NCBI GenBank assembly: GCA_022703645.1
Contig: JAKLDG010000001.1
Span: 443,277-507,276, forward strand
Length of the DNA: 64,000 nucleotides
From: Patescibacteria group bacterium
Lineage (GTDB): Bacteria > Patescibacteriota > JACPGU01
Reading direction: 5' to 3'
In this document: one piece after another, positions 3,319 through 48,858 of the stretch
Position numbering within the stretch: position 1 is the first letter of the stretch
Layout: each line of letters begins with the position of its first letter
The notes under the pieces: model-generated
What the model was told of the DNA's origin: nothing
The model's input: the letters and a program-made list of their open reading frames with translations, nothing else
Database searches by the model: none
Translations under genes and position numbers: made by a program

Positions 3319-3921
3319 CATTTCCAAAATTTGTATTTTTTAACATTCTCTATAATTCCTATTTGAATTTTCAATCTCAAATGAACAAATACTCGTCAAA
3401 TTATAGAAAATCGATTCTAGAGCATTTAAACGCGAAATAGTCATTTTTCCAGGTTCAATTAGGGTGAGATTAGTAGGATTTATAGGATTTTTAAGACATT
3501 TTTGACATTTGAGAAAAAAATTAAAAAATGAGTAGGGGAGACTAGAGTAGATTTTGCGACATTCGCGGAATCCAAACGAATGTGCGCAAAATCTACGATA
3601 TGTTATGTGACAATGAAGAAGGGGAGCGAAAGCAAAAATATTTTTAATTTCCAAAATATTTATTGTAAATTTGAATAGCGGGGAATAAACCTTTTCTAAA
3701 TGAAACCCTTCTTCAGTGTCGCATAACATATATTGTGCGACGTACTAAAACTGTTACCCTATCTCAATTTGTCACGTTTTTTTATGCGCAACAAAATGCG
3801 CATTTTTTTGACCCCCCTACTCCCCAGCTCAATCATTCCTATAAAATTCCAGATTTTTCGGTATTTATATATTGCAACATATTCCCCTATTTTGTCAAGT
3901 ATTACTATTTTCAAAATAACA

Positions 3922-3965: not shown

Positions 3966-4991
3966 TTAGATAGCCTTATCAAATACCGGAGCAATGCGCT
4001 TCAGCTCGCTCATAAGTTTTCCAAATTTTTCTATCGTAAGGCTTTGCGGACCATCGCAAAGTGCCTCCCATGGTTTGGGATGAACTTCGACCAATAATCC
4101 ATCAAACCCCCCTGCGACCGCCATTTTTGTGCTAATAGCGATCAGCTCGCGTATTCCAGTACCATGCGAAGGATCTATTATAACAGGCAGGTGTGTCATA
4201 ACAGTTTTCAGATATGCCGCGCCACCAAGATCTAGGGTGTTGCGCGTAGCTGTTTCAAAAGTACGTATTCCCCTCTCGCAAAGAATAACATTGGGATTAC
4301 CTTCCGATAAAATGTATTCTGCACTTTGCATTAATTCGTCCAGCGTCATTGAAAGTCCTCTTTTTAGAACCACTGGACGGACTCCCCTGCCGACTTCTTT
4401 CAGCAGATCGGAATTCTGCGCATTACGCGCGCCAATTTGCAAAATATCAACTACTTCACTCATTTTCTCGACCATCTGAGGTCTTGTGATCTCTGAAACA
4501 ATTGGCAAACCAATTTCTCCTTTAAGGCCATGAACGATCTCTATGCCCTCTTCTTCCATCCCCTGAAAAGCATACGGACCAGTTCTGGGCTTGTAAATGC
4601 CAACTCGCAGCATTGCGGCACCAGCCGCTTTTACCCCAGCTGCAGCGCTCATGAGCTGTTCCGGCGATTCCAGAGCGCAGGGACCGGCAATTACCACAAA
4701 TCTACCGTTGCCTATTTCTACATCCCCTACATGAATCTTTGTTTGAATCTTCGCCGCTTTTGCCGTAAGCTTGTAAGGCTTTGTTATTGGAGTTACTCTT
4801 TCCACCCCGTCCATTTGGGAAAAATGATCGATTAGTGGCTGCCTCTGATTGGTATCAATTATACCAATTATGGCAACCACAACGTTTTCTTTTCCCCTAT
4901 TCTCAACCACTTCAAAGCCCCTTGCCTCAACTTCCTTGCGAACCGTAGAGATATGTGATTCGCTTGCGCCACTTCTCATAATAATAACCAT
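3966..4991 (-). CDS. 3-deoxy-7-phosphoheptulonate (DAHP) synthase, class I-beta, with N-terminal ferredoxin-like/ACT regulatory domain (KDO8P synthase not fully excluded)
   Basis: 341 aa. N-terminal ~70-aa regulatory domain, then a catalytic core with 'RFVVIAGPCALES', 'LRVGIYKPRTGPYAFQG', 'VSEI', 'LQIGARN', 'VILCERGIRTFE' and 'IIDPSHG', characteristic of the DAHPS/KDO8PS TIM-barrel family. Architecture resembles Thermotoga/Bacillus-type DAHPS. Confidence 0.7.
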   Translation of the reverse strand: MVIIMRSGASESHISTVRKEVEARGFEVVENRGKENVVVAIIGIIDTNQRQPLIDHFSQMDGVERVTPITKPYKLTAKAAKIQTKIHVGDVEIGNGRFVVIAGPCALESPEQLMSAAAGVKAAGAAMLRVGIYKPRTGPYAFQGMEEEGIEIVHGLKGEIGLPIVSEITRPQMVEKMSEVVDILQIGARNAQNSDLLKEVGRGVRPVVLKRGLSMTLDELMQSAEYILSEGNPNVILCERGIRTFETATRNTLDLGGAAYLKTVMTHLPVIIDPSHGTGIRELIAISTKMAVAGGFDGLLVEVHPKPWEALCDGPQSLTIEKFGKLMSELKRIAPVFDKAI

Positions 4992-5200
4992 CTTCTTCCT
5001 ATCCTCCTTGTATTTTTTGATTTTTTAATGAACAAATAAAAAACTGACCGTTTTCGATCAGCTTTATACTTATTTAATCGATGATAAATAAAAGTTAGCT
5101 GATCGGTTGGTCAGTAAAGAAAAAGAAATACCAGCTATTCAACCTAACTATATTTTTCATAAAATTAATTATAATATAATATTCAAAGTCTTGTCAAATA

Positions 5201-8191
5201 TTAATGCAATTGAATTGATCCACCGGGATGAATAACGTTCTCATCTTTTTTATCTTCCTCTTCTGGCTGCGGCACTTGGGTATTTACAACTACCGTCCCC
5301 TGGTCTTCGTTTGAATCTTTTTTCATTATTTCAATACTGCCAAAATCCTTTGCAAGTTCTTCTTCGTTTGGTTTTTTATCGGCTGGTTCGGTATTTACTA
5401 CCACTCCCCCACTCTCCATTAGATTTTGAACCTGTTGAACAGGTTTAGTTTCCGTTTTTTCTTGCGGAATTTCTTTAATTTCCTCTTTAATTTCTTCCTT
5501 TTCCCCTTTTCCCTGTTTCTCTTCTAAATTCGTTATTCCAGATTCTAGATTCTTCTCCGCCTTCTTTTTTGCATACCAAATCCCACCTACTTTATCCTTA
5601 ATTTCACGGAATTTTTCGCCTGGTTTTTCTGTCACTTCTGGCAAAGATTCAGCGTCAATTAACTTGCCAAATCCCTTTTTATCTCCGAAATCTTTTTTCT
5701 TACCTTCAAGCTCCGCCATCTGAGCTGACCAAGTTAAAATAGCTTGTTCAACATCAGCTCTTGGCACAGCATATTTTGCGCGGGACTCTGCAATTATTCT
5801 ATCTCCAAGACCTTGAAACTTTCTAATATCTTTGAAATAAACGGTAGTAGCAGAAAAAGCTGGGTTTACCGCACCGTCAATTGTCATCTTCACGTAAATA
5901 TGTCTGTTGCTAAGATTTACCAAGTCAACTTCATCAAACACTGGTTCAAATGTTTTCTTAAATACTGGAGCATCATCCACGCTCACACGGAATGCGATAG
6001 TATTTCCTACGTTACCAAATACGGCATCACGGATTTCCGGATCCATTTGCGCGACATATTGGTGAGCCATTATTAGATTCAATTTATATTTTCTAGCCTC
6101 TGCAAGAATTGTTGCAAAAGAAGTGGTCGCAAAGTTCTGGAACTCGTCAACGTATAAGTAAAAGTCTTTCATATCTTCTTCTCTCATCGTTGATCTTTCC
6201 ATAGCGGTCAGCTGAATTTTGGTAATAATCATTGCACCAAGTAGAGCCATATTATCTTCACCGATTTCACCCTTGGAAATTTTTACCAAGAGGATTTTTT
6301 GATTATCCATTATATCTTTGATATCAAAAGTGCTTTGCGGCTGGCCAACAATATTACGAATCGATGGAACAGACAAAAATTGTCCAATTTTATTTTGAAT
6401 CGGAGCAATCGCTTCGGTAGCAAAACGCGGATTGGTTTTGAGTTGTACCTCATATTCATCTGTCCAAAATGCTTTTACGACTGGATCAGCAATATTATCC
6501 ACAATCATTTTGCGATAACCAGTATTCGTCAACATCTTGGTGGCTGAAAGCATTGTCGTTCCAGGTGTTTCCATGAGAGCGAGAATGATGTTTTTCATGA
6601 TATATTCCATACGCGCAGACCAGACGCCTTCCCATATTTTTTTGAATATACTCATCATCCCGGATGCTAATATTTCCCTCTTATGAACATCCACATTTTC
6701 GAGCAGATTGAATCCAAGACTGTATTCTCTATCTCCAGGATTTAGGTAGACAACATCATTAATACGTTTTTCCGGAATATAATCGAGCGCGGTATCCACA
6801 AATTCTCCGTGCGGATCAATAATCGCCAATCCCCTGCCCTCATCAATATCATCAAGTACCATGTTCTTCATCACGGTTGTTTTACCGGTTCCAGTTTGAC
6901 CAATGATATACATATGACGTCTGCGATCATCCATCTTAATTCCAAAATTCATATCTTTATCGCGGAAATTAACTTTACCAAAAACAGTCAAATCCTGTGA
7001 ATCCACAACTCCTTCCAAAGGCAATGTTGCAGGAGGCTCGCCTTTTTTGCTGCCTGCCCAATCGATGGTTGGAGTCTCTACAGTAACAGTTGGCAAGTGG
7101 AAAAGTGATGCCAACTCCTCAATATTAAATATGAACCCAGATTCTTCAAAATGTCTGGCTTGTACTGCATTAAGGTATTCGAAATCATCAAAATAAAGTC
7201 CTTTTGCCGCAAATCCATTGAGGTTTGAAGCATTAAATTGTTTAAAAGCTCCAACGATTGACTGCATTTTTATTTTCAGTTCTTCTGAAGATTTATTTGA
7301 TAAAAATGTTAAACGAATTTTTGTTTCATAACCAAGTTTGGTTGATTTTTCTTCAATCGCTTTCACTGCTTGTTCTACTGGACCGGGTAATTTAAAATCT
7401 TTTGATCCTTTACTTAAAGCTTCGGGAGATGCCAACAATTTAAAAAATAAAAATACTATTGAAAATAACTTCTTAATTATCCCCATTCCTGTAAAGGTAA
7501 ATTTAGAATCAGGTTTTTTACCAGATTTAATATCCGATACATATTTCATTGCACTTTGCTGCCATAAATCATCGACAGGACGGGTCAAAATCTGGATCCA
7601 AATCTGCTCGCCTTCATTCAATTGTGATATTACTCCGGTTATACTCGCCAAGGGATCCACTTCGAAATTTTGAAAAGATTTAATCGGATAAAAACTATTT
7701 CTGTTTAATATCAATTCTGTTCCGACAAAATGTATTCCCTCCGGCCTTTTGACTAATGTATAGTCTTCAACTTCTGATATTTCTACTGTCGGATATTGAG
7801 CATAAATCTGACCTTGAACAAAATCAACAAGATGTACCGGCACATAAACATAGAACCGCAGGTATTTATCTGAAGATACGATTTCAAAACTGATATGCTC
7901 CTGAAAAGATCCTTCTTCTAGTTTTTCTTTGGTACTTTTATGAATACCATGAAGAGACGCAAACATCATTTGTGCCGAAAGTGGCCCTTTTTCGTTCGCC
8001 CGAGGAACCTTAATAAGTAATGTGGTGTATTTTTGCTTTACTAGCCAAAGTCTTTTTCTACGCTTGCTATAAGCTTTTATAATTAACGAAAAACCAAAAA
8101 TCCAACCACCTATGATTAGTAAATAAAAAATGATTCGAAATGCGCCGAATAAGATGTCGGAGAAACTAAAACCATTAGATATTGATTCCAT
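5201..8191 (-). CDS. membrane-anchored P-loop ATPase of the type IV coupling protein (VirD4/TraG/TrwB-like) family
   Basis: 996 aa. N-terminal transmembrane segment (FGAFRIIFYLLIIGGWIFGFSLII). Walker A 'HMYIIGQTGTGKTTVMKNMVLDDIDEGRGLAIIDPHGEF' parallels TrwB 'GxTGxGKS...IVDPNG'. Walker B 'YLYVDEFQNF'. Long acidic/lysine-rich C-terminal tail. Confidence 0.65.
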   Translation of the reverse strand: MESISNGFSFSDILFGAFRIIFYLLIIGGWIFGFSLIIKAYSKRRKRLWLVKQKYTTLLIKVPRANEKGPLSAQMMFASLHGIHKSTKEKLEEGSFQEHISFEIVSSDKYLRFYVYVPVHLVDFVQGQIYAQYPTVEISEVEDYTLVKRPEGIHFVGTELILNRNSFYPIKSFQNFEVDPLASITGVISQLNEGEQIWIQILTRPVDDLWQQSAMKYVSDIKSGKKPDSKFTFTGMGIIKKLFSIVFLFFKLLASPEALSKGSKDFKLPGPVEQAVKAIEEKSTKLGYETKIRLTFLSNKSSEELKIKMQSIVGAFKQFNASNLNGFAAKGLYFDDFEYLNAVQARHFEESGFIFNIEELASLFHLPTVTVETPTIDWAGSKKGEPPATLPLEGVVDSQDLTVFGKVNFRDKDMNFGIKMDDRRRHMYIIGQTGTGKTTVMKNMVLDDIDEGRGLAIIDPHGEFVDTALDYIPEKRINDVVYLNPGDREYSLGFNLLENVDVHKREILASGMMSIFKKIWEGVWSARMEYIMKNIILALMETPGTTMLSATKMLTNTGYRKMIVDNIADPVVKAFWTDEYEVQLKTNPRFATEAIAPIQNKIGQFLSVPSIRNIVGQPQSTFDIKDIMDNQKILLVKISKGEIGEDNMALLGAMIITKIQLTAMERSTMREEDMKDFYLYVDEFQNFATTSFATILAEARKYKLNLIMAHQYVAQMDPEIRDAVFGNVGNTIAFRVSVDDAPVFKKTFEPVFDEVDLVNLSNRHIYVKMTIDGAVNPAFSATTVYFKDIRKFQGLGDRIIAESRAKYAVPRADVEQAILTWSAQMAELEGKKKDFGDKKGFGKLIDAESLPEVTEKPGEKFREIKDKVGGIWYAKKKAEKNLESGITNLEEKQGKGEKEEIKEEIKEIPQEKTETKPVQQVQNLMESGGVVVNTEPADKKPNEEELAKDFGSIEIMKKDSNEDQGTVVVNTQVPQPEEEDKKDENVIHPGGSIQLH

Positions 8192-26147: not shown

Positions 26148-26231
26148 TTATCCACAAATGGTAATCATTTGCATTTATAATAACATATTTAAAATATAGA
26201 GCAAGCTATATAAAATATTTTCTGTGGATAA
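26148..26231. promoter_or_regulatory. pair of inverted DnaA-box 9-mers (TTATCCACA at 26148-26156; TGTGGATAA at 26223-26231) upstream of the 911-aa secreted protein gene
   Basis: Two perfect 9-mers 66 bp apart in opposite orientation; both in the extended form AGTTATCCACA(A/G)A. Confidence 0.5.
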
Positions 26232-30536: not shown

Positions 30537-30629
30537 ACCAAGTAAAATAAAATAATCTTTACATATTGGCTTATTTATGCTATAATTTAAAGCATTAGGA
30601 AGAACATTACAAATTCAAGGAGGGCTAAA

Positions 30630-31304
30630 ATGCCTGAAAAAAAGAAGGTATTTCTGACAGATCCAAACTGGAGGGTGTTCGAAATTTCTTGGACGCCAAA
30701 AGACTATGGGGAAATAAAAAAGAAAAAAATCTCCAAGTTTTTAGCGGAACATCAGGACGGATGGTTCATGAATATCCTTTCACTGTCCAACGGAACGCTG
30801 ACTTTCCGCATCAAGGCAACTAAGAAAGAAAAAGAAAGTATTAGCTCACCGGTTTTCATCGGGAGAATTCTGACAAGAGCACAGAAAACTCTCTCCGGAG
30901 AAAAAATGGGGTTTATCGATGCCGATACCCATATTCGTGAAGAAGACTGCTCCATAAAAATCTTATACGTTTTCATAATTTCCGGAGACAACCTTCTTTA
31001 CCCGGTAAAAAGAATCGGCACTTCTGAAAAAAAAGTCTTGCTCGCACTAAACCCAGGCCGCGAAATCGTCAACATGAAGGTCTCAAAAGAAGAGCTGAAA
31101 GGAACATCAGCAGAATTCGCACCAACACTTCGGTCCTGCAAGAAAAATATCTGCTGGAAAAAAGAGTTCCCGATCGCGAAAGCCATCGAGGAAGAAATGC
31201 GCGAGCATCAAGAAAAAAAAGCATCAAACGCGAATACTCCTGCGAAAAAAGGTAGAAAGAAAGAAAGGTATGCAATCCCGGGTCAAGGAAATCTTGATCT
31301 ATAA
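30630..31304 (+). CDS. hypothetical protein (plus-strand ORFan with elevated GC)
   Basis: 224 aa, basic. Preceded by an extended -10 (TGCTATAAT at ~30580) and an AGGAGG SD 7 nt before the ATG. Confidence 0.6.
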   Translation: MPEKKKVFLTDPNWRVFEISWTPKDYGEIKKKKISKFLAEHQDGWFMNILSLSNGTLTFRIKATKKEKESISSPVFIGRILTRAQKTLSGEKMGFIDADTHIREEDCSIKILYVFIISGDNLLYPVKRIGTSEKKVLLALNPGREIVNMKVSKEELKGTSAEFAPTLRSCKKNICWKKEFPIAKAIEEEMREHQEKKASNANTPAKKGRKKERYAIPGQGNLDL

Positions 31305-31368: not shown

Positions 31369-34300
31369 TTATTTTGCAAGATCCTCAATCAGGTTTTCCA
31401 ACTTTCTCAGCCAATCACTTCCTAACTTTTCCAAATCAATACGAACCAACATATTGCCAAAATACCAATAGCCATTTGTCGCAACAATTTTTCGTGATTC
31501 TTCTTTTGTTAAAACATGGTCAAATTCGATATATAATTTTTTGACCTTTACATCCGCAATCGATAAAACATCCTTTACGACCATAGATTTAATTCCAGCG
31601 GCCTTTGCAAGAATTTTTAATTTAATCAGTTCGAATAAATTATCAAACTTTTGTGGTATTTTACTTTCCTGATTTATAATTTCCTCCTTAATTTCCTCAA
31701 TTTCTTCAATTTCATCTATGCTTGCCAATTTCTGATACATTTTTATCTTATCCTCTTCCTTTTCATAAAATCCATCCGGAATTAACGCGGAAATCGGTAA
31801 ATCAATCTTAATTTCATCCTCGCTTTTTGCAAATGTCGATTTGCCTTCTTTAATATTCCCCACTGCTTCTTCGAGTAATCGAAGGTAGTATCCAACACCA
31901 ACCATTTGCATCGATCCATGCTGTTCTTTTCCAAGTATGTTTCCGGAACCTCTGATATCAAGATCTTCAAGTGATAACTGGTAGCCGGAACCAAGATCGC
32001 CTTTTTCGGTAATAGTTTTAAGCCGTCTTGCGGCATTGCCAACCAAGTCCTTCGAATCATAAAGAAAATATGCGTATGCTTGGCGGAAGCTTCTACCGAT
32101 TCTCCCGCGAAGTTGATGCAGTTGGGATAGACCAAACTTTGTCGCTTTGTCCACTATGAGAGTATTAACGGTTGAAATATCCAGCCCCGACTCAATAATC
32201 GTAGAACAAACCAAAACTTGGAATTTCCCTGCGGCAAAATCATTCATCACGTGAGCTAAAGCTTCCTCCCCCATTTGTCCATGTCCAATTCCAAAAGTCA
32301 CTTTTGGCAATAATGTTTTTAGTTTTCCCGCCAAGGCAGTAATTGTCCGCACTTCATTATGAACGAAGTAAACTTGTCCATCACGATCAATTTCTCTTTG
32401 AATTGCTTCTCGTATAATCTCTTCATCACCTTTTATCACGATGGTTTTTATTGGCAGTCTTCCTTCCGGCGGAGTCGCAATAACGCTAATATCTTTCAGC
32501 CCTGATAAACCCATGTAAAGAGTTCTTGGAATTGGGGTCGCAGTCATAGTGAGAATGTCCACTTTGTCGCGCAATTTTTTGAGCTTTTCCTTATGCTTTA
32601 CGCCGAATTTTTGTTCCTCATCAATAACTATCAACATGAGATTTTTGAATTTCATATCAGATGATAATAATCTGTGGGTCCCGATCACAATATCCACGTT
32701 TCCGCTTGCAATTTTTTTCACAATCTCTTTCTGCTCAGTAGTACTATGAAACCTAGACAAAGATTCTATATTGCAATGCAGAAATTCCAATCTTTCTCGG
32801 AATGTCTGCAGATGCTGCTCAGCAAGAATTGTTGTTGGTGTTAATACTGCAACTTGTCCACCCGAATCAATGACACGAGCAGCAGCGCGAATTGCCACTT
32901 CTGTCTTGCCATAGCCGACGTCTCCGCAGACAAGCCTATCCATCGGCTTTGCTTCCATCATGTCAGAAAGCACATCATCAATCGCTTTTTGCTGATCTGG
33001 CGTCGTTTTGTAAGCAAAGCTACGAGAAAGAGCGTCTTGCTCCTTCGCATCATTAATATATCGGTAAGGTTTTTCTCCAGATCGCAAAGCTTGCGTTTCG
33101 ATTAATTCTTTAGCGATTTTTTCAACATTTTCCTGAACTTTTTTACGGACTTTTAGCCAGTTTCCGGATTTCAAAGATGATAAAAGAGGACTTTGATTCC
33201 CAACGCTGATATATTTTGTTATTTTATCTGCCTGATCGAGTGGAACAAAAATCTTATCTCCTCCTCCGTATTCAATGAAAATATATTCCCGGCTGATTTT
33301 GTCTACTGTGATTTCCCCGAATCCGGTAAAAATACCAATACCATGATCAATATGCACGACATACTCACCTTTCTTCAGGTTTGTAATTGCCGAAAAATCT
33401 ATCTTTTTTTTCTTCCTGTTTTTAAATTGGCCAAATATCTCTTTATCACTAAAAATCGTGATGCCAAGACTTCCAAGATCAACTCCCTCGCTAAGATGCC
33501 CTCCAATAATTTGTACGGCCGAATGGCTGTTTGACCCTACTTCAATAGAGTTTTCCAATAAAAATTTCTTCATCTCATCTATCTTCTCGGTAACAATAAA
33601 AACCTCCCTCTCTTTTGTTTTATTGTTTTCTTGTTTTATTGTTTTCTTGATTTCATGAACAAATTCCATCACCGCGCCTTTATAGTTTTTCGGCGCAAAC
33701 CAAGAAAGGTTCACACCCTTTTTTTCATCTACATGGAATGGTTCAATATAAACAACCTTTTGTTTTTTTACAAAAGCCTCAAGATCTTTAAGTTTTTCGA
33801 TTTCGTCTTCGGTAACTTTATAATCATCAGATGAAAAATACGAAAAGAAACTGTTATTAAATTGATCTTCACCATCAACCAAAAAAACAAAACCGTCAAG
33901 ATATTTGAGAAAAAAATCACTTCCTTCTGTAATTTTATTTGGGTAGACTTCAATTTTCTCAAACTCTTTTTCGTTTACCAAGTCTGAAATTTTTTCAACT
34001 TCATCTCCAAAAAATTCAATTCTATATTGCTTTTCAAAAATATTTATCTCAAGAACATCTCCTTTCACACCAAACTCTCCCCTACTGCCGACTTTTTTCA
34101 CTTTTTCATATCCGTTTTTAACCAACTGATCCGGAATCTGATGCGCGATATCATATTTCTCGCCCTTTTTGATTTCAAAAAAACTCTCTTTGTAGTTTTC
34201 GATTGGAATGACGCGAGTAAATAGTGTTTCGAAATCGATAAATACCGCCTTATTTTTATTCTCCGGCAAGTACAATTCTTCAACGTTGTCTGTTCTTAAC

Positions 34301-34566
34301 CAAAAAAAGCTGTCAAACCCAAGAGTTTTAGTGTTGCTAATTATATCCCCGGAATCGAGAATCTTTTTACTTGATAGGAAAACCACTCTCTTTTTATCCG
34401 CTTTACCGGGTATTTCATAGAGCTCGTTATGAAAATAACTTAGCAATATAGACTTGCTTATATCCCCTACTTCACCAATAAAAAAAGGCGTAGGTACACG
34501 AACCCCCGCCTCAAATAGTTTTGAGTTGGTTATTTTCTCTGAAATTTGTTTTGCTAAATTCTTCAT
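31369..34566 (-). CDS. mfd: transcription-repair coupling factor Mfd
   Basis: 1065 aa. RecG-like helicase core 'LVCGDVGYGKTEVAIRAA', 'DEEQKFGV', 'TATPIPRT'; N-terminal UvrB-homology and C-terminal TRCF domains. Confidence 0.9.
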   Translation of the reverse strand: MKNLAKQISEKITNSKLFEAGVRVPTPFFIGEVGDISKSILLSYFHNELYEIPGKADKKRVVFLSSKKILDSGDIISNTKTLGFDSFFWLRTDNVEELYLPENKNKAVFIDFETLFTRVIPIENYKESFFEIKKGEKYDIAHQIPDQLVKNGYEKVKKVGSRGEFGVKGDVLEINIFEKQYRIEFFGDEVEKISDLVNEKEFEKIEVYPNKITEGSDFFLKYLDGFVFLVDGEDQFNNSFFSYFSSDDYKVTEDEIEKLKDLEAFVKKQKVVYIEPFHVDEKKGVNLSWFAPKNYKGAVMEFVHEIKKTIKQENNKTKEREVFIVTEKIDEMKKFLLENSIEVGSNSHSAVQIIGGHLSEGVDLGSLGITIFSDKEIFGQFKNRKKKKIDFSAITNLKKGEYVVHIDHGIGIFTGFGEITVDKISREYIFIEYGGGDKIFVPLDQADKITKYISVGNQSPLLSSLKSGNWLKVRKKVQENVEKIAKELIETQALRSGEKPYRYINDAKEQDALSRSFAYKTTPDQQKAIDDVLSDMMEAKPMDRLVCGDVGYGKTEVAIRAAARVIDSGGQVAVLTPTTILAEQHLQTFRERLEFLHCNIESLSRFHSTTEQKEIVKKIASGNVDIVIGTHRLLSSDMKFKNLMLIVIDEEQKFGVKHKEKLKKLRDKVDILTMTATPIPRTLYMGLSGLKDISVIATPPEGRLPIKTIVIKGDEEIIREAIQREIDRDGQVYFVHNEVRTITALAGKLKTLLPKVTFGIGHGQMGEEALAHVMNDFAAGKFQVLVCSTIIESGLDISTVNTLIVDKATKFGLSQLHQLRGRIGRSFRQAYAYFLYDSKDLVGNAARRLKTITEKGDLGSGYQLSLEDLDIRGSGNILGKEQHGSMQMVGVGYYLRLLEEAVGNIKEGKSTFAKSEDEIKIDLPISALIPDGFYEKEEDKIKMYQKLASIDEIEEIEEIKEEIINQESKIPQKFDNLFELIKLKILAKAAGIKSMVVKDVLSIADVKVKKLYIEFDHVLTKEESRKIVATNGYWYFGNMLVRIDLEKLGSDWLRKLENLIEDLAK

Positions 34567-34675
34567 TCATAAATATTATACCAGTATCAATGTAAAACTC
34601 AAGGTTATCGTTAGTTAAATATAGCCCAAGAGTACTAAATCCTATCATCCTAATCCCCGTAACCTATTCTAAAAG

Positions 34676-34684
34676 TTATCCACA
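34676..34684 (+). promoter_or_regulatory. DnaA-box 9-mer TTATCCACA in the mfd upstream region; box-like variants at 34786-34810
   Basis: Perfect TTATCCACA ~110 bp upstream of the mfd start. Nearby TTGTGGACAA and TTATCCATT, and an inverted repeat TGGTCAATT...AATTGACCA. Confidence 0.45.
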
Positions 34685-34859
34685 GTGGTCAATTTATATG
34701 CTATTTTTTAATTGACCAGTGTGTAAAATATTCAAGTATATTTGTCCATCTATTACATAATAATGGCTTAATTAAGTCAATATTATTTGTGGACAAATTA
34801 TCCATTGACAATTAGAAATCATTGTGCTATATTATAAGCAAAATTCAGTATCGAAAGAA

Positions 34860-35460
34860 AGCACATTCATAAAAAATCTATATCACTTCTCACTAACTTT
34901 AGACATATGGAGTTGGTAGAGAAAGTGCTAGTCACGAAGAGTCAGTCTGGTCTCAAAGAAAATTTATTTCCTTTGTCTCCTCTCTAACTTTCTCGCGGTT
35001 AGCACTCTCTCTACCAATACTTAGAAAAAATTTTCAAGAGGTTCGCCTTTTGAAAAAATATCAAAGTTGTTTGTGGAGAGAAAACTACTTGCGAACTCTC
35101 AACGCAAGTTGAGATTCGGAAAATCTTTTAGCCCTCCTTTAAGAAATTCCTACTCGCAAGTAGTACTCTCCCCATTAGCACCCACGCACTAGCTCAGAAA
35201 TCCTATTGGAGGAGCTAGGGTCAAAATAATGTCGCCTAGACAGAATAGTTTGGGAATTCTGCTAGTGAGGAGTAATTTGGACGGATCGTCCCGGATGTAA
35301 AGGTCTCATAGCCTACCAAAATAAAAATAAAACTATAAATACATTAATATGAGGCCTCCCCACCCAGGAGGATCCGTCCAAAACATCTACACCACCTCCA
35401 AATCTCTCAACACCGAAGTAGCACCTTCGGAGCCAGCGCCAAGCTGGCTACTACTCGTAC
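34860..35460. ncRNA. candidate structured noncoding RNA of unknown family (ORF-free, hairpin-rich, GC-elevated region between mfd and pth)
   Basis: No ORF of 60 aa or more on any frame across ~960 bp. Multiple GNRA-capped hairpins (TCTCAAC-GCAA-GTTGAGA; TACTC-GCAA-GTAGTA). Local helices CCGAAG..CTTCGG and AGCCAGC-GCCAA-GCTGGCT. Long-range complementarities GGTAGAGAAAGTGCTAG / TTAGCACTCTCTCTACC and GACGGATC...GATCCGTC. Region ends just upstream of a perfect bidirectional terminator. Confidence 0.35.
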
Positions 35461-35465
35461 AAAAA

Positions 35466-35485
35466 AACCGGTCATTCGACCGGTT
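35466..35485 (-). terminator. bidirectional rho-independent terminator (pth terminator; may also close the upstream structured region)
   Basis: AACCGGTC-ATTC-GACCGGTT perfect 8-bp stem flanked by A7 upstream and TTTTTATTTTT downstream. Confidence 0.75.
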
Positions 35486-35533
35486 TTTATTTTTGATTTT
35501 TTGATTTCTTGCTTTCTTGTTTAATTGTCTCCC

Positions 35534-36097
35534 CTACATTCCCAAATACTGAATTCCATTTATCAATAAATCCTCAATGACGTTTTCAATAATCTCCTTT
35601 TCACTAACCTTTAGAGCCTGCAAAACCCAATCTTCAATCTTTGTTAATTCATCCTCTGGTCTGCCGATACCGATTCTGACGCGTATAAAGCGCTCTGTAC
35701 CGAGATTATCTATAATAGACTGTAATCCTCGATGGCCCGCAGAAGAACCTTCAGCGCGCATTTTTATCTTCCCCAAAGGAATATCTATGTCATCGTATAT
35801 AACTATCAAGTCTTTTTCTGGGTTTACTTTATAAAAATCAACTACTTTACGCACTGCAATTCCGGAATTATTCATAAAAGTCTGCGGTTTGACGAGGATT
35901 ATATCTTCCTTGCCCAATTTTAACTTTGCAACCTCCGCATCAAACTTTTTTTCAAGCTTAAATTCTTGGATAATCGAAACCTTGCTTTCTTGTTTTTTTG
36001 TTTTATTGATTATTTGTTCCAACCCCAAAAACCCCACATTATGTCGTGTGTTTGTGTATTTCTTCCCCGGATTTCCCAACCCAACTATTATTTTCAT
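35534..36097 (-). CDS. pth: peptidyl-tRNA hydrolase
   Basis: 187 aa. 'IIVGLGNPGKKYTNTRHNVGF', 'LGKIKMRAEGSSAGHRGLQSI'. Confidence 0.92.
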   Translation of the reverse strand: MKIIVGLGNPGKKYTNTRHNVGFLGLEQIINKTKKQESKVSIIQEFKLEKKFDAEVAKLKLGKEDIILVKPQTFMNNSGIAVRKVVDFYKVNPEKDLIVIYDDIDIPLGKIKMRAEGSSAGHRGLQSIIDNLGTERFIRVRIGIGRPEDELTKIEDWVLQALKVSEKEIIENVIEDLLINGIQYLGM

Positions 36098-39974: not shown

Positions 39975-39983
39975 TTATCCACA
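39975..39983 (+). promoter_or_regulatory. DnaA-box 9-mer TTATCCACA inside the palindrome CTGTGGAGTTATCCACAG, upstream of the M23 peptidase gene
   Basis: Perfect 9-mer; flanking sequence forms a 7-bp inverted repeat. Confidence 0.45.
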
Positions 39984-48748: not shown

Positions 48749-48849
48749 ATTTATAATCTACCACAAAAAATTAAAACTTTCTACATCAGTTAAAAACCTT
48801 TGACTTTTTCGCTTTTTTATGGTACAATTATACGGTTTTGTCAAAAGCT

Positions 48850-48858
48850 GTGGATAAA
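48850..48858 (-). promoter_or_regulatory. DnaA-box 9-mer (TGTGGATAA) in the divergent promoter region between rmuC and the 192-aa secreted protein gene
   Basis: Perfect reverse-complement box, 27 bp upstream of the plus-strand start at 48885. Confidence 0.45.

What the first reader, a model, noticed from the sequence alone, without database searches (positions are those of the whole stretch)
34860..35490. ORF-free, hairpin-dense, GC-elevated ~630-bp region between mfd and pth: candidate large structured RNA of unknown family
About 960 bp between mfd (start 34566) and pth (stop 35534) has no ORF of 60 aa or more in any frame. The distal ~630 bp is visibly richer in G+C than its surroundings. 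It contains at least two GNRA-tetraloop hairpins (TCTCAAC-GCAA-GTTGAGA, TACTC-GCAA-GTAGTA). It also contains the local helices CCGAAG...CTTCGG and AGCCAGC-GCCAA-GCTGGCT, and two long-range complementarities: GGTAGAGAAAGTGCTAG (34899-34916) pairing with TTAGCACTCTCTCTACC (34995-35012), and GACGGATC (35282-35289) pairing with GATCCGTC (35371-35379). The region ends at a perfect bidirectional terminator (35466-35485). I looked for hallmark motifs of tmRNA (tRNA-like TpsiC arm, ...CCA end), RNase P RNA (GGAAAGUCCGG, CGGCUUA) and SRP RNA domain IV and did not find them. It may therefore be a large ncRNA not matching the common housekeeping families, or a highly divergent one.
Basis: seen in the sequence. 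Interest (0 to 1): 0.72.

Follow-up and report, generated by a model that had tools for sequence, protein, structure and literature searches.

The report
Unknown large structured RNA beside pth
The gene-free gap between mfd and pth in this candidate-phyla-radiation (Patescibacteria) genome holds a real, strongly promoted, about 650-base non-coding RNA gene that folds into a conserved multi-domain structure, matches no RNA family in Rfam 15, and always sits tail-to-tail with pth in its relatives.

Summary
Window 34842-35495 (+) is an independent transcription unit. It has a near-consensus extended -10 promoter (34805-34833) and a bidirectional terminator (35463-35488), and it runs convergent with pth. 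Rfam 15 and ARAGORN give no hit.

Seventeen further distinct homologues were recovered, through pth relatives and through an invariant 19-mer. All keep the promoter, and all with enough flank are convergent with pth, down to 40% pth identity.

Over 15 sequences, 96.8% of cells in 53 proposed pairs are standard pairs. Twenty-six pairs show compensatory changes, and 0/500 shuffles reach these values. No ORF is conserved.

The core (35071-35382) has three parts:
- a three-way junction presenting an invariant C-rich loop, UUAGCCCUCCUUU, which resembles the anti-Shine-Dalgarno sequence;
- a central domain with invariant UUAGCACCCA and AAUGUCGCCUAGACA;
- a long 3' hairpin.

One pyrimidine strand (35165-35178) can pair with either of two purine strands (35071-35084 or 35262-35272). 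Both pairings covary and cannot coexist, which points to a conformational switch.

Function is not shown. My best guess is a regulator acting through the C-rich loop. That loop is complementary over 14 nt to the ribosome-binding site of an orphan gene at 30630. The family is new at family level.

The parts
34676..34800 (.). Upstream regulatory region. It holds a perfect DnaA box TTATCCACA (34676-84), a one-mismatch box TTGTCCACA (34788-96, - strand) and further TTGTCCA/TTATCCA-like boxes that reach the -35 element.
   Evidence: The perfect or near-perfect box is kept upstream of the RNA promoter in every family member. This includes L088 and L092, where other genes separate the RNA from mfd.
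34805..34833 (+). Sigma-70-type promoter TTGACA-17-TGcTATATT (11/12 matches, extended -10). The predicted start is about 34840-34842.
   Evidence: The same promoter is found by regex in all 16 members whose 5' flank is present. The scan tool confirms it in L085 and L093.
34842..34912 (+). 5' leader, poorly conserved and C/A-rich. It contains CUUCUCACUA (34886-95), which is complementary to the 3' purine strand.
   Evidence: (I7).
34913..35017 (+). Lineage-specific long hairpin. It is a degenerate duplicate of the 5' domain's P1 helix and lacks the invariant loop.
   Evidence: I2. It is absent from L085, L088, L090 and others. The profile HMM gives E = 2.6e-4 and the CM gives 37 bits.
35071..35084 (+). 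5' purine strand UUGUGGAGAGAAAA (switch strand 1). It pairs with 35165-35177 in conformer A.
   Evidence: the whole P1 is 91.9% paired, with 9 pairs showing compensatory change and 0/500 shuffles as high. A is the minimum-free-energy state in 13 of 14 members and within 0.4 kcal/mol of it in the other (L106).
35085..35163 (+). 5' three-way junction. It comprises upper P1 (35085-94 with 35154-63), P2, a variable GNRA hairpin (35097-35114), and P3 (35118-35150).
   Evidence: the same junction folds in 17 of 18 members, and L094 lacks P2; upper P1 is 98% paired.
35125..35143 (+). Invariant 19-mer CUUUUAGCCCUCCUUUAAG. The 13-nt P3 loop UUAGCCCUCCUUU (35128-40) is C-rich and resembles the anti-Shine-Dalgarno sequence.
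   Evidence: It is identical in all 18 members. It was used as the probe.
35165..35178 (+). Contested pyrimidine strand ACUCUCCCCAUUAG (switch strand 2).
   Evidence: It pairs with strand 1 or strand 3. The same nucleotides covary with both.
35178..35261 (+). Central domain. It comprises invariant UUAGCACCCA (35175-84), P4 (35189-95 with 35212-18), invariant AAUGUCGCCUAGACA (35228-42, the mini-hairpin P5 UGUC-GCCUA-GACA) and a variable linker.
   Evidence: All 7 P4 pairs show compensatory change. P5 never varies.
35262..35272 (+). 3' purine strand CUAGUGAGGAG (switch strand 3). It pairs with 35168-78 in conformer B.
   Evidence: 97.6% paired, with 4 of 11 pairs showing compensatory change. RNAalifold chooses this helix.
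35276..35382 (+). P6, a long 3' hairpin. It has the conserved internal loop CUGGAUGnAAAG / CUCCCCACCCAGG and an A-rich apical loop.
   Evidence: I1; 12 of 17 pairs show compensatory change and 95.4% of cells are paired.
35383..35462 (+). Variable 3' tail. It has a CU-rich stretch (CCACCUCC, 35387-35413) and two lineage-specific hairpins (35414-31 and 35432-50).
35463..35495 (+). Bidirectional intrinsic terminator (11-bp stem, A-tract before and U-tract after), shared with the convergent pth.
   Evidence: A hairpin plus U-tract closes the RNA in every member.
30617..30630 (+). Candidate trans target. AAGGAGGGCUAAAA, the ribosome-binding site through the A of AUG of orphan gene 30630-31304, is a perfect 14-nt complement of the P3 loop.
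   Evidence: The gene has no homologue. Conservation could not be tested.

Best explanation
What is shown:
- Window 34842-35495 (+) is a stand-alone gene for a structured non-coding RNA of about 650 nt (386-657 nt in relatives).
- It has a near-consensus promoter and ends at an intrinsic terminator shared with the convergent pth gene.
- It belongs to a family confined, as far as sampled, to a CPR3-like lineage of Patescibacteria.
- Possible simpler relatives of 130-170 nt occur in other Patescibacteria.
- The conserved core has three parts. A three-way junction (P1-P2-P3) displays an invariant 13-nt C-rich loop. A central domain holds two invariant single-stranded or mini-hairpin motifs. A long 3' hairpin follows.
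- The lower half of P1 (5' purine strand with the pyrimidine strand) and a second helix (the same pyrimidine strand with a 3' purine strand about 95 nt downstream) are mutually exclusive. Both are maintained by compensatory change.

What is inferred:
- The RNA toggles between two conformers. Conformer A forms first during transcription and is favoured by 0-11 kcal/mol in nearest-neighbour energies. Conformer B closes the central domain and frees the 5' purine strand. B would need a ligand, a protein or tertiary contacts to be populated.
- The RNA acts in trans through the exposed CCCUCC loop. The loop would bind G-rich Shine-Dalgarno-type sequences and occlude ribosome binding on selected mRNAs, as the C-rich loops of Staphylococcus RNAIII and RsaE/RoxS do. 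Alternatively it could mimic the 16S rRNA 3' end for a protein that binds it.
- A conserved DnaA-box cluster abutting the promoter suggests that its synthesis is tied to the replication cycle.
For: Independent transcription unit:
- The promoter scores 11/12 with an extended -10. It is present in all 16 members that have a 5' flank.
- The terminator is called in the window, and a hairpin plus U-tract ends every member.

Real RNA structure:
- Folding z = -9.1.
- Of the cells in 53 pairs, 96.8% are standard pairs and 26 pairs show compensatory change. No shuffle of 500 reaches this, and slid controls pair at about 40%.
- G-U pairs outnumber A-C 69 to 31, which favours the + strand.
- No ORF is conserved, and gap-run lengths in the alignment fall mostly outside multiples of three.

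Conservation and synteny:
- Members were found through pth homologues.
- Members were also found independently, through the 19-mer, in metagenomes.
- All members with enough flank have pth convergent immediately downstream, at 40-100% pth identity.

Not a known family.

Switch: both helices covary over the same pyrimidine nucleotides, and their energies are compared.

Loop acting as an anti-SD element:
- The loop is invariant.
- It has a 14-nt perfect complement at the RBS of gene 30630.
- Only about 8 of 53 genes in this window have any SD.
- In the candidate distant relatives L011, L019 and L022, a CCCUCCU-loop hairpin sits about 115-170 nt upstream of the start codon of a small ORF that carries an SD.

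DnaA box: it is conserved next to the RNA promoter even where mfd is displaced.
Against: - No expression data exist. The start site and the 3' end are predictions.
- The candidate target gene is an orphan.
- No comparable complementary site was found in the 6-14 kb available around four other members (L098, L109, L110, L111). A conserved nearby target is therefore excluded, and the single match could be chance (my rough estimate is about 1e-3).
- A 19-nt invariant block is more than an RBS seed needs. The metagenome scan found no 19-nt complementary partner. Invariance may therefore reflect protein binding or tertiary docking instead.
- Conformer B is 0-11 kcal/mol less stable than A in every member, so it may be only transient.
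- The link to the short Patescibacteria elements is weak. CM E-values are 6e-3 to 0.85, the L011 hit is on the wrong strand, and the order of the hairpins differs.
Confidence: 0.4

Rival explanations
1. Protein-binding or RNP scaffold RNA. The invariant motifs are UUAGCCCUCCUUU, UUAGCACCCA, GUCGCCUAGACA and the P6 internal loop. On this view they are protein recognition sites. The C-rich loop would mimic the 16S rRNA 3' end (…CCUCCUUU) and titrate or recruit a factor that binds it, such as Era, bS21 or a maturation RNase. Function would be housekeeping or ribosome-related rather than antisense.
For: - Blocks of 10-19 invariant nucleotides persist in members whose pth proteins are only 40-55% identical. 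This exceeds what a short antisense seed needs.
- UUAGC occurs in two invariant blocks, and the GCCUAGA motif recurs in the P6 apex of six members.
- CCUCCUUU is identical to the usual 16S 3' end (established knowledge).
- A very strong promoter is typical of housekeeping RNAs.
Against: No candidate partner gene is co-located. The neighbours are ctpB-like, rplI, ybaB, pth and mfd. The 16S 3' end of this lineage was not available for comparison. There is no direct evidence of protein binding.
Confidence: 0.25
2. Ligand- or signal-sensing RNA, that is, a riboswitch-like sRNA. One of the two domains would be an aptamer, and binding would decide which of the two exclusive helices forms. That in turn would change what the RNA exposes: the SD-like 5' purine strand or the central domain.
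For: - The three-strand exchange covaries in both registers.
- The two conformers differ by a few kcal/mol in several members: 0.1 in L093 and 1.7 in L090 and L116.
- In L011, L019 and L022, related-looking elements sit as leaders in front of SD-bearing small ORFs.
Against: In the main family no gene lies downstream on the same strand. The RNA ends at a terminator facing pth. No terminator or SD takes part in the exchange. No known aptamer is matched.
Confidence: 0.15
3. Regulator of pth acting in cis or antisense. The RNA would exist because of its convergent arrangement. Its 3' end is complementary to the pth mRNA 3' end through the shared terminator, and read-through would give antisense pth RNA. 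It would therefore tune pth mRNA stability or termination.
For: The RNA-pth convergent adjacency is kept in every member with flank, down to 40% pth identity. It is also kept in members retrieved without reference to pth. The shared terminators are bidirectional.
Against: An elaborately conserved 320-nt structure with invariant loops is not needed for antisense or terminator effects. The terminator region itself is not conserved in sequence. Gene order in general is conserved in this lineage.
Confidence: 0.1
4. A highly divergent version of a universal RNA (RNase P RNA, tmRNA, SRP RNA or 6S RNA) that Rfam models fail to recognise in this lineage.
For: The promoter is strong, the size is several hundred nt, and the RNA is conserved in a reduced genome. 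The window contains no other RNA gene. GGAUGGAAAGU in P6 faintly recalls RNase P CR-I (my reading of the sequence).
Against: There is no Rfam match even at E<=10 and no ARAGORN tmRNA. The RNA has no tRNA-like end, no P4-type long-range pairing and no SRP domain IV motif. The order of motifs is incompatible with RNase P. Whether the lineage has normal copies elsewhere could not be checked.
Confidence: 0.05
5. Not a functional RNA: a decayed gene, a mobile-element remnant, or DNA-level inverted repeats.
For: The opposite strand folds even better in silico. The first hairpin is a local duplication.
Against: - The element is single-copy in the window.
- It is syntenic and under purifying selection, with compensatory changes.
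- The promoter and terminator are conserved.
- G-U pairs outnumber A-C on the + strand.
- There is no ORF remnant.
Confidence: 0.03

Closest known systems
Staphylococcus aureus RNAIII (514-nt agr effector RNA)
   Same: Both are large, multi-hairpin regulatory RNAs made from their own promoter. Both present C-rich hairpin loops complementary to Shine-Dalgarno regions. This analogy rests on established knowledge and was not tested here.
   Different: There is no sequence or structure match to any Rfam family. This RNA encodes no peptide. It has one invariant loop rather than three redundant ones. No target is validated. The phylum is different.
C-rich-loop sRNAs of Firmicutes (RsaE/RoxS, the UCCC-motif Rsa RNAs)
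   Same: Both expose an unpaired CCC/CCUCC motif in a hairpin loop that can pair with GGAGG at ribosome-binding sites. Here a 14-nt perfect complement lies at the RBS of gene 30630.
   Different: Those sRNAs are about 100 nt, simple, and carry two or more C-rich regions. This RNA is 4-6 times larger, with two further conserved domains and a strand-exchange switch. There is no Rfam match.
Orphan large structured bacterial RNAs (OLE, ROOL, GOLLD, raiA)
   Same: Both are several hundred nt long, with many covarying helices and highly conserved unpaired nucleotides. Both are narrowly distributed, and both were found by comparative genomics before any function was known.
   Different: There is no hit to their Rfam models even at E<=10. 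The host lineage (CPR3-like Patescibacteria) and the gene context (convergent with pth) differ. Multimer formation is unknown here.
Three-strand conformational switches (riboswitch expression platforms, attenuators, ColE1 RNA II alpha/beta/gamma pairing)
   Same: One strand has two alternative partners, and both are conserved. The 5' partner is made first.
   Different: No terminator, SD or downstream gene is controlled by the exchange. No ligand is known. This is not an origin region, since GC skew is uniform.
Universal housekeeping RNAs (RNase P RNA, tmRNA, SRP RNA, 6S RNA)
   Same: Both have a strong promoter, are conserved in a reduced genome, and are stand-alone genes.
   Different: None of their defining elements is present.

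Membership tests
Any Rfam 15 family (4227 covariance models) | Score at or above the family's gathering threshold | tested here: not met
   There are 0 hits in the 64-kb window and 0 hits in 12 related loci. At E<=10, only terminator look-alikes and miRNA-hairpin noise appear, all far below gathering score.
tmRNA | tRNA-like domain (acceptor stem, T-arm, CCA end) plus a tag-peptide reading frame | tested here: not met
   ARAGORN finds no tmRNA or tRNA in the window. The RNA ends in an intrinsic terminator.
RNase P RNA (bacterial types A and B) | CR-I (GGAAAGUCC) and CR-V (…GGCUUA) forming the long-range P4 helix, plus the conserved S-domain | tested here: not met
   There is no RNase P model hit at E<=10. 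The only GGAAAG lies in P6 and pairs locally.
SRP RNA (4.5S or Bacillus type) | Domain IV helix with GNRA tetraloop and conserved symmetric and asymmetric loops | tested here: not met
   There is no SRP model hit at E<=10.
OLE / ROOL / GOLLD / raiA large RNAs | Match to the family covariance model | tested here: not met
Riboswitch or cis-regulatory leader | A regulated gene lies downstream on the same strand, and its terminator or SD takes part in the alternative pairing | tested here: not met
   In all 18 members the RNA ends at a terminator facing pth, with no downstream same-strand gene. This feature is met only in the candidate distant relatives L011, L019 and L022.
Riboswitch or cis-regulatory leader | Two mutually exclusive conserved helices | tested here: met
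Trans-acting C-rich-loop antisense RNA (RNAIII / RsaE type) | Unpaired C-rich motif displayed in a hairpin loop | tested here: met
   The P3 loop UUAGCCCUCCUUU is unpaired in the fold of every member and is invariant.
Trans-acting C-rich-loop antisense RNA (RNAIII / RsaE type) | Conserved complementarity to ribosome-binding sites of target mRNAs | tested here: inconclusive
   There is one perfect 14-nt site at the RBS of orphan gene 30630. None was found in the limited flanks of other members. Whole genomes were not searchable.
Trans-acting C-rich-loop antisense RNA (RNAIII / RsaE type) | Demonstrated repression of target translation | not testable with these tools
   This needs toeprinting or reporter assays.
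Independent sRNA/ncRNA gene | Own promoter and own terminator, with no conserved ORF | tested here: met
Chromosomal origin (oriC) or origin-associated RNA | DnaA-box cluster located at a GC-skew switch | tested here: not met
   DnaA boxes are present. However, GC skew is uniformly negative across the 64 kb and genes stay on the - strand on both sides.

The most novel reading that the evidence does not exclude
This would be the founding member of a previously undescribed class of large, complex-folded RNA that is specific to candidate-phyla-radiation bacteria. Its ancestral core would be a P1-closed junction displaying a CCCUCCU loop that mimics the 16S rRNA 3' end, convergent with pth and widespread in Patescibacteria. 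It would work as a conformationally switched, DnaA-controlled regulator of translation initiation, or of a ribosome-associated factor, in organisms that otherwise make little use of Shine-Dalgarno sequences.
Probability: 0.3. Interest if true: 0.88.

Novelty: categorically new. Interest (0 to 1): 0.75.

Why it matters
Patescibacteria (the candidate phyla radiation) make up a large share of bacterial diversity. Most are uncultured, their genomes are about 1 Mb, and little non-coding RNA biology is known for them beyond rRNA and tRNA introns.

A 400-650-nt RNA that such a small genome keeps, transcribes from a near-perfect promoter and conserves more strictly than its neighbouring proteins is likely to do something important.

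It offers several things:
- a new large RNA fold for structural work, following the precedent of OLE, ROOL and GOLLD;
- a natural example of a three-strand exchange in which both states are under selection;
- a testable link between an anti-Shine-Dalgarno-like loop, peptidyl-tRNA hydrolase synteny and DnaA boxes, in organisms where most genes in this window lack a Shine-Dalgarno sequence or are leaderless.

If the simpler CCCUCCU-loop elements in other Patescibacteria are true relatives, the class is phylum-wide.

Tried and rejected
- **Known RNA families.** I ran Rfam at gathering score and at E<=10 on the window, on a minimal member (L094) and on 12 related loci, and ran ARAGORN. Nothing was found.
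- **Repeat or mobile element.** The element is single-copy in the window. A viral-contig scan with the 19-mer gave one chance hit.
- **Coding region.** No ORF is conserved in position, strand or length. Gap-run lengths fall mostly outside multiples of three. The 19-mer shows no third-position variation.
- **oriC.** There are six perfect DnaA boxes in the window, five of them intergenic, but no GC-skew switch.
- **Conserved nearby trans target.** The orphan gene 30630 has no homologue among 5.8 billion proteins or in any locus. No second site with two or fewer mismatches lies at an RBS in the long loci of other members.
- **Wider distribution by sequence.** A profile HMM of the core finds every family member (E 1e-44 to 1e-84). 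Among the 80 genome loci it finds only L007 and none of the other 79.
- **Wider distribution by structure.** A CM of the 5' domain gives only weak hits to the short elements. L011 is matched on the wrong strand because of the symmetry of its P1 helix. I therefore treat that homology as a lead only.
- **Triple helix.** I considered this as an explanation for the two purine strands and rejected it. Both are antiparallel to the pyrimidine strand and so parallel to each other, which does not fit a purine-motif triplex (inference).
- **Pairing of the CU-rich tail with either purine strand.** It is not supported by eye across members.
- **Literature.** Four full-text searches found no description of this RNA.
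Full report
**1. The observation**

- The stretch 34567-35533 lies between mfd (31369-34566, -) and pth (35534-36097, -). Both genes were identified by Pfam.
- It has no ORF of 60 aa or more.
- G+C rises to 0.43-0.45 in 35100-35500, against 0.26-0.34 just upstream.
- The region folds far better than shuffled sequence. The + strand gives z = -9.1 and the - strand z = -11.6.
- Three imperfect hairpins with 21-35-nt arms dominate: 34913-35017, 35074-35174 and 35276-35382.
- The supposed GCAA hairpin at 35151-66 is instead one strand of a longer helix.

**2. It is a transcription unit on the + strand**

- A promoter TTGACA-17-TGcTATATT (11/12 matches, extended -10) sits at 34805-34833.
- The only terminator-like site is at 35463-35488.
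- This predicts an RNA of about 650 nt that is convergent with pth.
- Neither Rfam at gathering score (whole window) nor Rfam at E<=10 (34400-35700) gives a meaningful hit. ARAGORN finds nothing in 64 kb.

**3. Source organism**

- The pth protein is named in public sources as coming from a Patescibacteria MAG.
- Its closest named relative belongs to candidate division CPR3, whose genome names carry G+C of about 35%, like this window.
- Contigs carrying the identical pth have an identical spacer.

**4. Relatives**

- nhmmer of the spacer against 80 pth loci from species-representative genomes hit only L007. The hit lies just downstream of pth on the opposite strand.
- I fetched the contigs of eight pth homologues at 57-71% identity. 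All have a 670-1020-bp gap downstream of pth free of long ORFs, and all contain the element.
- In L088, L092 and L093 other genes sit between the element and mfd, yet the element stays next to pth.
- An invariant 19-mer, CUUUUAGCCCUCCUUUARG, was then used to scan metagenome contigs. It returned eight further distinct members, some duplicates, and unrelated chance matches.
- Every one of these members with enough flank again has pth convergent immediately downstream, at pth identities down to 49% (L104) and 40% (L106).
- In contrast, most of the other 79 pth loci have only 20-370 nt after pth.
- A profile HMM of the core hits none of those 79 loci.

**5. Anatomy**

- All 16 members with a 5' flank carry the same promoter (confirmed by the scan tool in L085 and L093).
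- All members end in a hairpin plus U-tract, usually with an A-tract before it, so the terminator is bidirectional.
- Transcript lengths are 386-657 nt.
- The conserved core is window 35071-35382. It contains:
  - P1, whose upper part is CUACUUGCGA/UCGCAAGUAG;
  - P2, a variable hairpin, often with a GNRA loop, absent in L094;
  - P3, whose 13-nt loop UUAGCCCUCCUUU sits within a 19-nt invariant block;
  - the invariant UUAGCACCCA;
  - P4, where all 7 pairs show compensatory change;
  - the invariant AAUGUCGCCUAGACA, a possible UGUC-GCCUA-GACA mini-hairpin;
  - P6, a long hairpin with a conserved internal loop and an A-rich apex.
- On a 15-sequence MAFFT alignment that was not fitted to the structure, 96.8% of cells in 53 pairs are standard pairs. 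Twenty-six pairs show change on both sides. No shuffle of 500 reaches any of the five measures, and slid controls pair at 36-45%.
- G-U pairs outnumber A-C by 69 to 31, which favours the + strand.
- No ORF is conserved, and gap-run lengths fall mostly outside multiples of three.
- The window's first hairpin (34913-35017) is a lineage-specific, degenerate duplicate of P1.
- L083, L103 and L113 carry a nested duplication instead.

**6. Two exclusive helices**

- The pyrimidine strand after upper P1 (window 35165-78, consensus CUCUCUAUUAG) is complementary to two purine strands.
  - One is the 5' purine strand (35071-84, consensus UAGUGGAGAG). Pairing with it extends P1 and gives conformer A.
  - The other is a 3' purine strand (35262-72, consensus CUAGUAGAGAG). 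Pairing with it closes the central domain and gives conformer B.
- The same five pyrimidine-strand positions covary with both partners. Two examples:

| Member | Pyrimidine strand | 5' purine strand | 3' purine strand |
|---|---|---|---|
| L093 | CUCUUCGUUA | ACGAAGAG | AAUGAAGAG |
| L104 | UCUCCCUAUUA | UAAUAGGGAGA | UAAUAGGGAGA |

- The full P1 (upper P1 plus the conformer A helix) is 91.9% paired, with 9 pairs showing compensatory change.
- The conformer B helix is 97.6% paired, with 4 such pairs.
- RNAalifold prefers B.
- Single-sequence thermodynamics prefer A by 0.1-10.8 kcal/mol.
- I infer a switch in which A forms first and B requires stabilisation. This is inference, and no probing data exist.

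**7. Leads on function**

(a) The P3 loop contains CCUCCUUU, the usual 16S anti-Shine-Dalgarno end.
  - Its only perfect complement in the window, apart from the gene itself, is AAGGAGGGCUAAAA at 30617-30630. That site is the ribosome-binding site and first base of the start codon of gene 30630-31304.
  - Only about 8 of 53 genes here have an SD at all, so I estimate chance at about 1e-3.
  - The gene is an orphan, and no equivalent site lies in the flanks of four other members.
  - This remains an unconfirmed single case.

(b) A perfect DnaA box plus weaker boxes lie directly upstream of, and run into, the RNA promoter. They travel with the RNA gene, not with mfd. GC skew excludes an origin at this position.

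(c) The convergent pairing with pth is the most conserved context feature. Its meaning is unknown.

(d) In eight other Patescibacteria loci, a hairpin with loop (A/U)UCCCUCCU lies on the strand antisense to pth, 185-630 nt beyond its end.
  - It sits inside a long P1 of the form YCUGCGAG…CUCGCAGR.
  - In three of these loci an SD and a small ORF follow it. Two others are stand-alone RNAs of about 130-170 nt.
  - CM support is weak, the order of hairpins differs, and the L011 hit is on the wrong strand.
  - None of these loci hits Rfam.
  - I regard these elements as possible distant relatives.

**8. Comparison and verdict**

- Membership tests for tmRNA, RNase P, SRP, OLE/ROOL/GOLLD/raiA and all other Rfam families fail.
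- The riboswitch definition fails because there is no controlled downstream gene, although the two-helix exchange is riboswitch-like.
- Functionally, the nearest analogues are C-rich-loop antisense regulators (RNAIII, RsaE/RoxS). This is an analogy from established knowledge, not a tested membership.
- Four literature searches found no description of this RNA.
- I conclude with high confidence (>0.9) that this is a genuine structured RNA gene.
- At family level it is new.
- The switch is supported at about 0.6-0.7.
- The mode of action remains a hypothesis at about 0.3-0.4.

Noticed in passing
window 26148-26156, 26223-26231(-), 34676-34684, 39975-39983, 48849-48857(-), 6495-6503: There are six perfect DnaA boxes (TTATCCACA, usually aGTTATCCACAg) in 64 kb, and five of them lie in intergenic regions. 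The box looks like a promoter-associated motif in this genome. GC skew shows no origin in the window.
   Followed up: partly
window 34566-34602 (mfd), also the starts at 8191, 48748, 52547 and 56056 (- strand genes): A TATAAT-like -10 box lies 4-8 nt before the ATG of mfd and several other genes, so these mRNAs are probably leaderless. Only about 8 of 53 genes have a recognisable Shine-Dalgarno sequence.
   Followed up: partly
window 30630-31304 (+), with promoter about 30560-30590 and RBS 30617-30626: This is an orphan 224-aa lysine-rich protein with no Pfam match and no homologue among 5.8 billion proteins. It is one of the few genes here with a strong SD, and that SD is a perfect 14-nt complement of the RNA's invariant loop.
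   Followed up: partly
window 1-64000: There is no tRNA, tmRNA or Rfam-recognised RNA anywhere in the 64 kb. Nearly all genes are on the - strand.
   Followed up: no
L101 4456-4490 (+): An isolated copy of the P3 hairpin sequence (AAGCCUUUUAGCCCUCCUUUAGGAUUU) lies on a different contig of the same metagenome as member L094/L110. It lacks the rest of the RNA. It may be a second locus or a chance match.
   Followed up: no
P6 apical loops: window about 35304-35312; also L092, L097, L103, L111 and L116 (sequences): The invariant P5 motif (U)CGCCUAGA recurs at the start of the A-rich apical loop of P6 in six members. This suggests a repeated recognition module.
   Followed up: no
L011 about 4550-4745(-), L019 about 4790-5000(-), L022 about 4725-4890(-): Small ORFs of 65, 69 and 54 aa, two of them Cys-rich, with good SDs directly follow the short CCCUCCU-loop elements. 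They are not obviously similar to one another.
   Followed up: partly
L088 2615-3001, L090 2608-2940: Genes of the 23S_rRNA_IVP family (PF05635) sit immediately upstream of pth in some relatives. MazG or MFS fragments occupy this position in others. The slot before pth is variable while the RNA after it is fixed.
   Followed up: no
L093 2575-2882 (-), L094 about 3600-3830 (-), L088 4340-5341 (-), L092 4225-5105 (-): Small hydrophobic ORFs or two-gene insertions lie between the RNA promoter region and mfd in some members. The RNA-mfd adjacency is therefore less constrained than the RNA-pth adjacency.
   Followed up: no
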